A stretch of DNA of 64,000 nt, from UHGV virus genome UHGV-0307316; one strand, 5' to 3'. Each line of letters begins with the position of its first letter. The first letter of the stretch is position 1. The notes under the pieces were generated by a model, which saw only the letters and a list, made by a program, of their open reading frames with translations, was not told the DNA's origin and searched no databases. This DNA is from a virus. Made by a program: the position numbers and the translations under genes. Below are positions 19,644 through 19,924 of this stretch, piece after piece.

Positions 19644-19775
19644 CAGAAGACCGTTTACAGCAAAACTTAAACAATCTATTTCTCCGGTAAAGAAAAGGCG
19701 AAGGTTCGATTCCTTCACTCGGCAGATGTCGAGTTGGTGTAATGGTAGCACTTAAGATGATAAACAACGGTCTGG
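19644..19775 (+). repeat. stem-bounded element, copy 4, containing the permuted tRNA-like module
   Basis: AGACCGT/ACGGTCT arms enclosing 19679-19752. Confidence 0.5.
19679..19752 (+). ncRNA. circularly permuted tRNA-like module (candidate Y-RNA/YrlA-like tRNA mimic)
   Basis: Order on DNA: anticodon-like arm, T-arm, 3' acceptor strand, 3-nt linker, 5' acceptor strand (7/7 pairs), D-arm. Confidence 0.4.
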
Positions 19776-19924
19776 TAATTATCTTTGTAGATAAGTTATT
19801 AAGCTTACCTGTGAGTATGCGACCACAAAGGGTGAAAGGGTAAATTCTAGATTTAAACCCAAAAAGGCACATCGCTACAGACCTTAAGCAAGTCTGGGTA
19901 GCTTATCTACAAAGATAATTTAAT

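What the first reader, a model, noticed from the sequence alone, without database searches (positions are those of the whole stretch)
19768..19919. Perfect 19-bp inverted repeats flanking a 115-bp segment
AATTATCTTTGTAGATAAG (19768-19786) is the exact reverse complement of CTTATCTACAAAGATAATT (19901-19919), and pairing extends imperfectly beyond. The enclosed segment has further hairpins (CAGACC-TTAAGCAA-GTCTGG). An ORF-track call on the minus strand here (19615-19872) is likely spurious. This resembles a large structured RNA or a miniature inverted-repeat element.
Basis: seen in the sequence. Interest (0 to 1): 0.4.

Follow-up and report, generated by a model that had tools for sequence, protein, structure and literature searches.

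The report
Structured RNA in phage tRNA operon
The inverted repeat is the closing stem of a conserved, unannotated ~144-base structured RNA that sits just before a lysine tRNA in a Felix O1-like phage, next to several Y-RNA-like RNAs and a gene for a Ro60-like protein, so it probably belongs to a phage version of the Ro/Y-RNA system.

Summary
The repeat is real, but the coordinates are off. The arms lie at 19777-19795 and 19902-19920 and extend to about 24 bp, with 106 nt between the perfect arms.

It is not a mobile element. It is the closing helix of a 144-nt RNA (19777-19920) on the + strand. That RNA lies inside a polycistronic tRNA operon of a Felixounavirus and ends 4 nt before tRNA-Lys(UUU).

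Homologues in phages whose neighbouring protein is only 53-63% identical keep three features: the long stem, a 3'-proximal mini-hairpin with loop YYUWWGCAA, and the position before tRNA-Lys. Their stem sequences differ. On a nine-sequence alignment 93.5% of cells pair, 12 of 19 pairs change on both sides, and 0 of 500 shuffles reach this.

The same tRNA spacer region holds four hairpins with a conserved RGR-helix/WWCAGCAA signature. One encloses a permuted tRNA-like domain (V arm, T arm, capped acceptor, D arm), which is the YrlA Y-RNA architecture.

The ORF 17252-18667 (DUF2828) folds like Ro60. The signature accompanies this protein family across diverse phages, always on the gene's strand.

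Whether the flagged RNA itself binds the Ro-like protein is an inference. A covariance model of the signature does not score its mini-hairpin. No Rfam family matches.

The parts
19777..19800 (+). 5' arm of the closing stem of module 3. The perfect 19-mer is 19777-19795.
   Evidence: There are 24 uninterrupted pairs in the MFE fold. Compensatory changes appear in relatives.
19897..19920 (+). 3' arm of the closing stem. The perfect 19-mer is 19902-19920.
19801..19877 (+). Variable multi-branched interior of module 3. It exists in two allelic forms among close relatives. Type A is found here and in most Felixounavirus; type B in tootiki, Suspvirus and Mooglevirus. A hairpin with a CUA loop (GAUUCUAGAUU) is shared by both.
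19878..19896 (+). Mini-hairpin CAGAC-CUUAAGCAA-GUCUG, abutting the 3' arm. The stem covaries and the loop consensus YYUWWGCAA is conserved.
   Evidence: (5 of 5 pairs changed on both sides).
19921..20000 (+). 4-nt linker UAAU followed by tRNA-Lys(UUU) at 19925-20000. RNase P cleavage of this tRNA would create the 3' end of module 3 (inferred).
   Evidence: Module 3 ends 0-4 nt before tRNA-Lys(UUU) in nine homologues.
19644..19775 (+). Module 2, a YrlA-like tRNA mimic. The outer helix is AGACCGUU (19648-55) with AACGGUCU (19766-73), followed on the 5' side by UACAGCAA. Inside lie a V/anticodon-like arm (19679-95), a T arm (19700-16), an acceptor-like hairpin ACUCGGC-AGAU-GUCGAGU (19717-34) and a D arm (19737-51).
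   Evidence: partial tRNA match; the acceptor hairpin covaries: ACUCGGC/GUCGAGU, ACACGU/GCGUGU, ACCCUUC/GAAGGGU.
19557..19630 (+). Module 1, a Y-like hairpin: CAGA-AGACCAA-AUACAGCAA ... UUGGUCU-GG.
   Evidence: model R1, E = 1.2e-4.
19168..19227 (+). Y-like hairpin in the tRNA-Met/tRNA-Asn spacer.
   Evidence: E = 1.1e-5.
19002..19073 (+). Y-like hairpin in the tRNA-Glu/tRNA-Met spacer.
   Evidence: E = 1.2e-5.
19501..19556 (+). Two hairpins (H1 19501-19521, H2 19519-19556) at the start of the Asp-Lys spacer. They are nearly invariant across three genera. Their role is unknown.
17252..18667 (+). Gene for a 471-aa Ro60-like protein (Pfam DUF2828 + DUF7788/vWA; PHROG 850 'RNA-binding protein').
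   Evidence: model pLDDT 89. In one search the top 11 PDB matches are all Ro60/TROVE, with E about 1e-8 and query-normalised TM 0.55-0.63 for ten of them (0.38 for the D. radiodurans chain).
18777..18806 (+). Sigma-70-like promoter match upstream of the first tRNA. The next strong match is at 20175-20203. Together they would place the Asp-Lys spacer inside one tRNA transcript (inferred).
   Evidence: consensus scan only.

Best explanation
The inverted repeat is an RNA helix, not a DNA-level element. It closes a ~144-nt multi-branched non-coding RNA ('module 3', 19777-19920). This RNA is transcribed on the + strand as part of the phage's polycistronic tRNA precursor.

**Shown**
- The helix, a 3'-proximal mini-hairpin with a conserved loop, and the position 0-4 nt upstream of tRNA-Lys are all under selection across Ounavirinae-like phages.
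- The RNA lies directly after a YrlA-type tRNA-mimic Y-like RNA. Three further Y-like hairpins lie further upstream.
- All of these lie 335-1,250 nt downstream of a gene whose product has the Ro60 fold.
- The Y-like signature accompanies this protein family in many unrelated phages.

**Inferred**
- RNase P cutting at tRNA-Lys makes the 3' end.
- The long AU-rich duplex protects the RNA from exonucleases, or serves as an RNase III processing stem, or both.
- The mini-hairpin (AGAC-CUUA-AGCAA-GUCU-G) is a shortened copy of the RGR-helix/WWCAGCAA signature. Through it the RNA joins the Ro60-like protein, either alone or as one RNA with module 2.
- The exchangeable interior would act as the effector- or target-binding part, as in bacterial Y RNAs that tether Ro60 to other factors.

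My confidence is about 0.9 for 'selected RNA structure', about 0.65 for 'functional stable RNA rather than mere spacer', and about 0.4 for 'partner of the Ro60-like protein'.
For: **Repeat and fold.** (z = -5.45).

**Transcription context.** There are 26 + strand tRNAs, and the element lies in the 429-nt Asp-Lys gap. Promoter-like sites bracket the unit.

**Conservation.** 252 phage records match, all apparently Felix O1-like.

**Compensatory changes.**
- Seen in the stem and the mini-hairpin.
- Homologues in phages with 53-63% protein identity keep the architecture with different stem sequences.
- Pair counts on alignment A3: 93.5% of cells paired, 12 of 19 pairs changed on both sides, 0 of 500 shuffles reach this, and slid controls give 37-47%.

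**Strand.** The + strand fold is more stable than the - strand fold in 9 of 9 homologues.

**Neighbours.**
- The YrlA-like layout matches the architecture described in PMC4201824, as seen.
- The protein has the Ro60 fold.
- A strict motif descriptor gives 66 hits on the gene strand, 0 on the other strand, and about 0.05 per shuffle set.
- Covariance model R1, built from other phages, finds three window hairpins at E = 1e-5 to 1e-4. It also finds 57 hits, all on the gene strand, in 69 loci not used to build it.

**Literature.** A preprint shows that Bas63 (Felixounavirus) gp130 is Ro60-like and counters the Ppl defence. It only speculates about Y RNAs among the downstream tRNA genes (PMC11482910).
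Against: - There is no expression or processing data for any of these RNAs.
- Model R1 does not score the module-3 mini-hairpin at all (best 2.6 bits with filters off). The link of module 3 to the Y-like family therefore rests on adjacency and a short resemblance.
- Module 3 has no tRNA-like domain.
- The canonical Ro-binding motif GNCGAAN0-1G is absent from all modules.
- No Rfam family other than tRNA matches.
- gp130 alone, expressed from a plasmid or moved into T7, counters Ppl. The protein therefore does not need phage-encoded RNAs in that assay.
- A second long stem-loop sits directly 5' of tRNA-Leu(UAG) at 21393-21484. This suggests that long stems next to tRNAs may have a general processing role unrelated to Ro.
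Confidence: 0.6

Rival explanations
1. Pure processing spacer. The 22-24-bp duplex is an RNase III (or other nuclease) site that separates the upstream Y-like RNAs and tRNAs from tRNA-Lys. Its role would resemble the stems that flank rRNAs. On this reading the enclosed sequence has no function of its own.
For: - The duplex is long enough for RNase III (established knowledge).
- It ends 0-4 nt from a tRNA 5' end in all homologues.
- A second long stem sits directly 5' of tRNA-Leu(UAG).
- The interior differs greatly between types A and B.
Against: - The mini-hairpin loop YYUWWGCAA is conserved while its stem covaries.
- An inner hairpin with a CUA loop is kept in both interior types.
- The size stays at 142-166 nt in nine homologues.
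- A bare processing stem would not need about 100 nt of structured interior.
Confidence: 0.25
2. An independent stable phage RNA unrelated to Ro60. Its role could be like that of the species 1 and 2 RNAs of the T4 tRNA cluster, or it could act as a decoy for a host nuclease or defence factor.
For: - Module 3 fails the Y-like covariance model.
- It occurs only in Ounavirinae-like phages, whereas the Y-like signature is widespread.
- The swapped interior cassettes suggest diversifying interaction with a variable partner.
Against: - It is preceded by a Y-like module in the genomes where I looked (window, L111, L112, L115).
- Its mini-hairpin shares the AGAC...AGCAA...GUCU-G layout with those modules.
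Confidence: 0.12
3. Miniature inverted-repeat transposable element or another DNA-level element, such as a cruciform, an origin or a recombination site.
For: - Terminal inverted repeats of 19-22 bp.
- The interior behaves like an exchangeable cassette between closely related phages.
Against: - It is single-copy in 64 kb.
- It occupies the same syntenic position in all relatives.
- I saw no flanking direct repeats (my reading).
- The arms diverge with compensatory changes, and the wobble pairs fit only the + strand.
Confidence: 0.03

Closest known systems
Bacterial and phage Y RNAs of the YrlA/YrlB type bound by Ro60 (Rsr) (Chen et al. 2014, PMC4201824; Thermus phage phiLo Yrl1/2, PMC12135203)
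   Same: - Several small structured RNAs are encoded next to, and on the same strand as, a Ro60-fold protein.
- One of them (module 2) has the YrlA layout: V arm, T arm, capped acceptor stem and D arm inside a helix formed by the RNA's two ends.
- Others lack the tRNA-like part, like YrlB.
- Module 3, like classical Y RNAs, has its two ends paired in a long stem around a large structured loop.
   Different: - By sequence the protein is DUF2828/DUF7788, not Pfam TROVE.
- The conserved RNA signature is an RGR-helix plus WWCAGCAA instead of GNCGAAN0-1G (CGAA).
- The RNAs are interspersed among tRNA genes in a tRNA operon.
- Module 3 has no tRNA-like domain, its long stem has no conserved bulged helix, and neither Rfam nor my motif model matches it.
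Species 1 and 2 stable RNAs (rnaC, rnaD) of the phage T4 tRNA gene cluster (from my own knowledge; not checked here)
   Same: These are small stable RNAs of unknown function that are co-transcribed with phage tRNAs and cut out by tRNA-processing enzymes.
   Different: No sequence or structure comparison was made. As far as I know, T4 has no Ro60-like gene next to the cluster.
RNase III processing stems flanking rRNAs and T7 early mRNAs (established knowledge)
   Same: A duplex of 20 bp or more is formed by sequences that flank a functional RNA within a polycistronic precursor.
   Different: Cleavage was not tested. Here the enclosed RNA is only about 100 nt, and the duplex lies next to a tRNA.
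Miniature inverted-repeat transposable elements
   Same: A short element (about 150 bp) bounded by terminal inverted repeats.
   Different: It is single-copy and syntenic, I saw no target-site duplication, and it evolves by compensatory change as an RNA helix.

Membership tests
YrlA-type Y RNA (Chen et al. 2014) | Encoded within about 4 kb of a Ro60 orthologue and on the same strand | tested here: met
   The ORF 17252-18667 has the Ro60 fold. The modules lie 335-1,250 nt downstream on the + strand.
YrlA-type Y RNA (Chen et al. 2014) | tRNA-like domain in the order V, T, acceptor-like stem-loop, D, enclosed by a helix of the 5' and 3' ends | tested here: not met
   This verdict is for the flagged element (module 3, 19777-19920), where no T or D arm is present. 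The neighbouring module 2 (19644-19775) does meet this feature.
YrlA-type Y RNA (Chen et al. 2014) | GNCGAAN0-1G motif in the Ro60-binding strand | tested here: not met
   The only GGCGAAGG (19698-19705) lies at the junction of the variable loop and the T stem, and it is not conserved in Mordin. The conserved motif is WWCAGCAA instead.
YrlA-type Y RNA (Chen et al. 2014) | Physical association with Ro60 and tRNA-type modifications | not testable with these tools
   This needs immunoprecipitation and modification mapping.
Y-like hairpin family associated with DUF2828 Ro-like proteins (defined here) | 7-9-bp helix starting RGR, then N-W-D-CAGCA-W, a variable insert, the 3' strand, then G | tested here: not met
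   Model R1 gives no meaningful score on 19770-19930. The module-3 mini-hairpin has only 5 bp, AAGCAA in place of CAGCAA, and no insert. Four neighbouring elements match the descriptor. Model R1 scores three of them at E = 1e-5 to 1e-4 and module 2 only partially (E = 0.49).
Classical Y RNA architecture | 5' and 3' ends paired in a long stem around a large internal loop, with a conserved bulged helix for Ro60 | tested here: inconclusive
   The long stem and the structured loop are present. No conserved bulge or conserved stem sequence is seen across homologues.
Ro60/TROVE protein family (for the neighbouring gene) | TROVE HEAT-repeat ring plus vWA domain | tested here: met
   By fold, the top 11 PDB matches are all Ro60 and align over the full length. 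By sequence there is only DUF2828 + DUF7788, no Pfam TROVE hit at the default E <= 0.001 cut-off, and the profile against PDB gives Ro60 at E = 0.14.
Miniature inverted-repeat element | Multiple dispersed copies and target-site duplication | tested here: not met
   The 19-mer occurs only in the two arms, I saw no flanking direct repeat (my reading), and the place is syntenic in all relatives.
Intrinsic terminator | GC-rich hairpin followed by a U tract | tested here: not met
   The stem is AU-rich and is followed by UAAU and then a tRNA. The terminator scan did not call it.
tRNA gene (some records annotate a 131-nt 'tRNA-Thr GGT' in this spacer) | Acceptor 5' strand and D arm upstream of the anticodon and T arms | tested here: not met
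   The annotation in REP5 covers parts of modules 1 and 2. ARAGORN and Rfam call no tRNA there. The matching acceptor strand and D arm lie downstream of the T arm.
RNase III processing stem | About 20 bp or more of duplex that is cleaved by RNase III | not testable with these tools
   The duplex length criterion is met. Cleavage needs an experiment.

The most novel reading that the evidence does not exclude
Felix O1-like phages, and many unrelated phages, may carry a previously undescribed Ro/Y-RNA system. A divergent Ro60 (DUF2828; in Bas63 an anti-defence protein) would work with a family of Y-like RNAs marked by an RGR-helix/WWCAGCAA signature.

In Ounavirinae-like phages the flagged long-stem RNA would be the exchangeable 'cargo' domain of this particle. 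Its two interior alleles would set which host RNA, nuclease or defence factor is captured.
Probability: 0.3. Interest if true: 0.75.

Novelty: new variant of a known kind. Interest (0 to 1): 0.6.

Why it matters
Ro60 and Y RNAs are a conserved RNA quality-control system whose role in bacteria and phages is still unclear.

A 2024 preprint showed that the Felixounavirus Ro60-like protein defeats a bacterial defence system (Ppl). It could only guess that Y RNAs hide among the downstream tRNA genes.

This analysis points to concrete candidates with coordinates:
- a YrlA-like tRNA mimic;
- three short Y-like hairpins;
- the flagged long-stem RNA.

It also gives a sequence-structure signature that accompanies the protein family across many phages. 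That makes the question 'does the phage Ro60 work with its own RNAs, and on what targets?' directly testable.

There is a practical point as well. Annotation pipelines either skip these elements or mislabel them as an intron-containing tRNA-Thr or as hypothetical proteins.

Tried and rejected
1. **Mobile element.** The 19-mer has no further copy. Rejected.

2. **Coding.** The minus-strand ORF 19615-19872 and the plus-strand ORF 19579-19755 have no Pfam hits. The minus-strand ORF is broken in close relatives.

3. **Known RNA family.** Rfam at gathering thresholds on the window, Rfam at E <= 10 on 19480-19940 and Rfam on 10 diverse loci give only tRNA, tmRNA and a group I intron elsewhere.

4. 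**Permuted tRNA gene or two-piece tmRNA.** This was my first reading of the T arm followed by the matching acceptor strand and D arm. ARAGORN finds no tmRNA. The capped acceptor and the enclosing helix fit YrlA better.

5. **Hammerhead-like CCGAUGAG in the type B interior.** The core does not match and no GAAA follows. This is from reading the sequence only.

6. **Kissing interaction.** I considered pairing between the mini-hairpin loop (AAGCAA) and the UUGCUU loop of the stem-loop at 21393-21484. Tootiki has UAGCAA but an identical UUGCUU, so there is no covariation. Dropped.

7. **Module-3 mini-hairpin as a bona fide copy of the Y-like signature.** Model R1 does not score it. I keep this only as a resemblance.

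8. **Sequence-level Ro60 homology of the protein.** phmmer against PDB finds nothing, and the profile gives Ro60 only at E = 0.14. The fold search was needed.

9. **Literature.** Searches for DUF2828, for Felixounavirus with Y RNA and for Bas63 with Ro60 found no description of these RNAs. A search for FelixO1 transcriptome data returned nothing relevant. The supplementary tables of Chen et al. 2014 are not held, so I could not check whether any Felix O1-like phage was in their list.

Full report
**1. The observation**

- The arms lie at 19777-19795 and 19902-19920, with 106 nt between them.
- Pairing continues inwards to 22 nt at 95%. It reaches 24 uninterrupted pairs, three of them G-U, in the minimum-free-energy fold.
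- The 19-mer occurs nowhere else in the 64-kb window, even with three mismatches. No shuffle of the window gives two matches.
- The 151-nt segment folds with z = -5.45 against dinucleotide shuffles.
- The inner hairpin is real (19878-19896) but has 5 bp and a 9-nt loop.
- The minus-strand ORF 19615-19872 is a mechanical ORF with no Pfam hit. Frameshifts or stops break it in many near-identical relatives.

**2. Where it lies**

The window comes from a Felix O1-like phage. 252 phage records match the region, almost all named Escherichia, Salmonella, Shigella, Felixounavirus or Citrobacter phages. Every record whose taxonomy I read belongs to Ounavirinae.

The element sits in a cluster of 26 tRNA genes, all on the + strand (18833-24396). 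It occupies the only long tRNA-free gap of the first block, 429 nt between tRNA-Asp (ends 19495) and tRNA-Lys(UUU) (starts 19925).

Sigma-70-like promoter matches lie at 18686-18714, 18777-18806 and 20175-20203. The gap would therefore be inside one polycistronic tRNA transcript. This is an inference from a consensus scan.

**3. Anatomy of the gap**

The + strand fold of the whole gap and alignments of 29 distinct versions from relatives divide it into five parts.
- **Two hairpins** (19501-19556) that are almost invariant across three genera.
- **Module 1** (19557-19630): CAGA-AGACCAA-AUACAGCAA ... UUGGUCU-GG.
- **Module 2** (19644-19775), with the same outer helix and motif: AGACCGUU-UACAGCAA ... 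AACGGUCU-GG. It encloses:
  - an anticodon-like arm;
  - a T arm (GAAGG UUCGAUU CCUUC);
  - a hairpin whose two strands are the 3' and 5' strands of a tRNA acceptor stem joined by a tetraloop (ACUCGGC-AGAU-GUCGAGU);
  - a D arm (GUGU AAUGGUA GCAC).
- **Module 3** (19777-19920), the flagged element.
- **A 4-nt linker** before tRNA-Lys.

The capped acceptor hairpin of module 2 covaries between genera. It reads ACUCGGC/GUCGAGU in Felixounavirus and ACACGU-UACG-GCGUGU in SUSP2 and KPS64. In the Mooglevirus phages Mordin and Michonne it reads ACCCUUC-GCCAAACA-GAAGGGU, and that loop contains a CCA.

This order of arms inside a helix made by the two ends is the architecture described for YrlA. YrlA is the tRNA-mimicking Y RNA bound by bacterial Ro60 (PMC4201824).

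Some GenBank records annotate part of this region as a 131-nt 'tRNA-Thr GGT'. Neither ARAGORN nor Rfam supports that.

**4. The neighbouring protein**

The ORF 17252-18667 is 471 aa and ends 335 nt before the first Y-like hairpin.
- By sequence it is DUF2828 + DUF7788 (vWA) and PHROG 850 'RNA-binding protein'.
- Sequence searches against solved structures are nearly blind. phmmer finds nothing, and a profile puts Ro60 first at only E = 0.14.
- An AlphaFold model built on 38 homologues (pLDDT 89, pTM 0.89) matches Ro60/TROVE proteins in all top 11 PDB hits over the full length. These are Thermus phage phiLo, Xenopus, human and Deinococcus Ro60. E is about 1e-8. The query-normalised TM-score is 0.55-0.63 for ten of them and 0.38 for the Deinococcus chain.

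A 2024 preprint reached the same structural conclusion for gp130 of the Felixounavirus Bas63.
- It showed that gp130 counters the Ppl defence system.
- It speculated that some downstream 'tRNA genes' might be Y RNAs (PMC11482910).
- In that work gp130 alone, expressed from a plasmid or moved into T7, was sufficient.

That gp130 is the orthologue of this ORF is my inference. It rests on the same genus, the same position before the tRNA genes and the same fold.

**5. A family-wide RNA signature**

The window holds two more copies of the module-1 pattern, in the Glu-Met spacer (19002-19073) and the Met-Asn spacer (19168-19227).

The protein family is common in phages, with at least 594 loci in IMG/VR.

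*tRNA-like elements.* In 75 diverse loci, a simple descriptor for 'T arm + capped acceptor hairpin' found such elements in 14 loci.
- In 12 of the 14, ARAGORN was run and the hit does not overlap a called tRNA.
- One further hit lies inside a tRNA-Ser and one, on the opposite strand, looks spurious.
- Each element I examined has an enclosing helix followed by a CAGCAA-like motif (CAGCAA in most; CCGCAA, CAGCAG or CAGCAU in some).

*Strict descriptor.* This requires a 7-bp helix starting RGR, then N[AU][AUG]CAGCA[AU], its complement within 170 nt, then G.
- It gave 66 hits in 41 of 79 loci on the strand of the Ro-like gene.
- It gave none on the other strand and about 0.05 per shuffled set.
- About three quarters of the hits lie within 600 nt of the gene.

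*Covariance model R1.* I built it from 27 such hairpins of phages outside the Felixounavirus, Suspvirus and Mooglevirus set aligned earlier.
- It finds the three short window hairpins at E = 1e-5 to 1e-4, and nothing else significant in 64 kb.
- It finds 57 hits at E <= 0.01 in 69 loci not used to build it, all on the gene's strand.
- Some of those 69 loci are near-duplicates of training loci, and five are fragments of tRNA clusters from relatives.

No Rfam family matches any of these elements.

I therefore regard modules 1 and 2 and the two upstream hairpins as Y-like RNAs of a divergent Ro60 family. The signature WWCAGCAA replaces the GNCGAAN0-1G motif of YrlA.

**6. The flagged element itself**

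Within Felixounavirus, Suspvirus and Mooglevirus the closing stem is kept through U-A to C-G exchanges. Its G-U pairs fit only the + strand.

Close relatives carry one of two very different interiors.
- Type A is the one in this window and in most records.
- Type B is found in tootiki and others of the same genus, and in the other two genera.
- The switch points fall inside the conserved arms. BLAST matches of those phages stop at query position 295, which is window 19790.

Both types keep a hairpin with a CUA loop and the 3'-proximal mini-hairpin. The mini-hairpin changes from CAGAC-CUUAAGCAA-GUCUG to CAAACC-CUUUAGCAA-GGUUUG.

In more distant phages the Ro-like protein is 53-64% identical, and I found the same architecture in seven loci (L111-L117).
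- L113 is Yersinia phage vB_YenM_P778.
- In four of them (L111-L114) I measured the module. It is 142-166 nt long and ends 0-3 nt before tRNA-Lys(UUU).
- Each locus shows a closing stem of roughly 20 bp or more of unrelated sequence.
- Each has a mini-hairpin with loop YYUWWGCAA directly abutting the 3' arm.
- In L116 and L117 further structure lies between the module and the tRNA-Lys gene.
- L118 shows a similar long stem, but its hairpin loop departs from the consensus.

On a nine-sequence MAFFT alignment RNAalifold recovers the outer 14 bp and the mini-hairpin. Counting pairs on that alignment gives these results.
- 93.5% of cells are paired.
- 12 of 19 pairs changed on both sides, including all five pairs of the mini-hairpin.
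- No shuffle out of 500 reaches the observed values.
- Controls with the partners slid by 1-3 columns give only 37-47% pairing.

The + strand fold is more stable than the - strand fold in all nine.

This is a selected RNA structure, not a transposon remnant.

**7. How it most likely works**

*Shown.* The repeat forms the closing helix of a conserved RNA domain. That domain lies inside a tRNA operon, just 5' of tRNA-Lys and just 3' of a Y-like module.

*Inferred.*
- RNase P cleavage of tRNA-Lys leaves the RNA with a 0-4-nt 3' tail.
- The long duplex stabilises the RNA against 3' exonucleases. Being longer than 20 bp, it may also be cut by RNase III, which would release the interior.
- The mini-hairpin resembles a shortened copy of the Y-like signature (AGAC + 4 nt + AGCAA + GUCU + G). 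It may recruit the Ro60-like protein.
- Alternatively, modules 2 and 3 stay joined, since only one nucleotide separates them. Module 3 would then be the effector- or target-binding part of one larger Y-like RNA.

*What weakens the last two steps.*
- The covariance model of the signature does not score the mini-hairpin.
- The mini-hairpin occurs only in Ounavirinae-like phages.
- The protein can act without phage RNAs in the one published assay.
- A second long stem-loop sits directly 5' of tRNA-Leu(UAG). This leaves room for a Ro-independent processing role.

**8. Comparison with what is known, and novelty**

The closest known system is the bacterial and phage Ro60/Y-RNA pair, with YrlA and YrlB. 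Module 2 works like YrlA and shares its architecture. It fails the motif criterion and matches no curated model. Its protein partner is Ro60 by fold only.

Module 3 fits none of the defining YrlA features. It shares only the general Y-RNA layout of paired ends around a structured loop.

In the papers I could search, no description of these RNAs exists. The supplementary phage list of Chen et al. 2014 could not be read.

I therefore class the finding as a new variant of a known kind. It is a lineage-specific structured RNA attached to a previously unrecognised family of phage Y-like RNAs.

**9. Verdict**

The 'structured RNA' reading is right and the 'MITE' reading is wrong.

The surroundings are more interesting than the repeat itself. 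They give concrete RNA candidates for a phage Ro60-like anti-defence protein.

Interest is 0.6. The main uncertainty is whether the flagged RNA is a functional partner of that protein or only a processing and structural spacer.

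Noticed in passing
window 21393-21484: A second long stem-loop (27-nt arms, 85% complementary, z = -5.56) ends exactly at the 5' end of tRNA-Leu(UAG), which starts at 21485. It is identical in tootiki over the stretch aligned. It may be another processing stem or structured RNA.
   Followed up: partly
window 19501-19556: Two hairpins directly after tRNA-Asp are almost invariant across Felixounavirus, Suspvirus and Mooglevirus, although neighbouring sequence varies. No U tract follows them, so they are not an obvious terminator. Their role is unknown.
   Followed up: no
window 20408-20486: Rfam calls a weak tRNA here (31.7 bits) that ARAGORN misses. Relatives annotate a tRNA-Arg(TCT) at a comparable position after tRNA-Ile.
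   Followed up: no
L001 (phage REP5) 701-831, which corresponds to about window 19596-19726: Several GenBank records (REP5-7, ASO1B) annotate a 131-nt 'tRNA-Thr GGT' here. Others annotate hypothetical proteins. These labels cover parts of modules 1 and 2 and look like mis-annotations of the YrlA-like element.
   Followed up: yes
window 19790-19905 versus L002 (tootiki), L003, L004 and L006: The interior of module 3 is exchanged as a cassette (types A and B) between phages that are otherwise about 97% identical in the flanks. The switch points lie inside the conserved stem arms, which suggests recombination through the arms.
   Followed up: partly
L053 1317-1767, L107 1393-1844, L099 3231-3307, L100 4374-4450, L107 3793-3867: Other phages that encode the DUF2828 Ro-like protein also carry permuted (two-piece type) tmRNA genes. 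Some carry suppressor-type tRNAs with anticodons UUA or CUA near the gene.
   Followed up: no
L004 (Mordin) and L005 (Michonne), acceptor-like hairpin of module 2: In these two Mooglevirus phages the loop capping the acceptor-like stem reads GCCAAACA. That is a discriminator base plus CCA directly after a 7-bp stem. M. smegmatis YrlA has a 7-bp stem, is cut by RNase P and receives CCA.
   Followed up: no
phage database hit H76, GU169904.1 (Staphylococcus phage SA1), 58619-59046: A record labelled as a Staphylococcus phage holds a 96.7% identical copy of this Felix O1-type spacer. The record is probably chimeric or contaminated.
   Followed up: no
window 20724-21128: This ORF of 134 aa inside the tRNA cluster has weak HNH endonuclease matches, below the Pfam cut-offs. 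Tootiki annotates an HNH endonuclease inside its tRNA cluster too.
   Followed up: partly
L111 7135-7421 and L115 4728-5015: These relatives (63-64% protein identity) lack the YrlA-like module 2. There module 1 is followed directly by module 3, so the tRNA-mimic module is dispensable in some lineages.
   Followed up: partly
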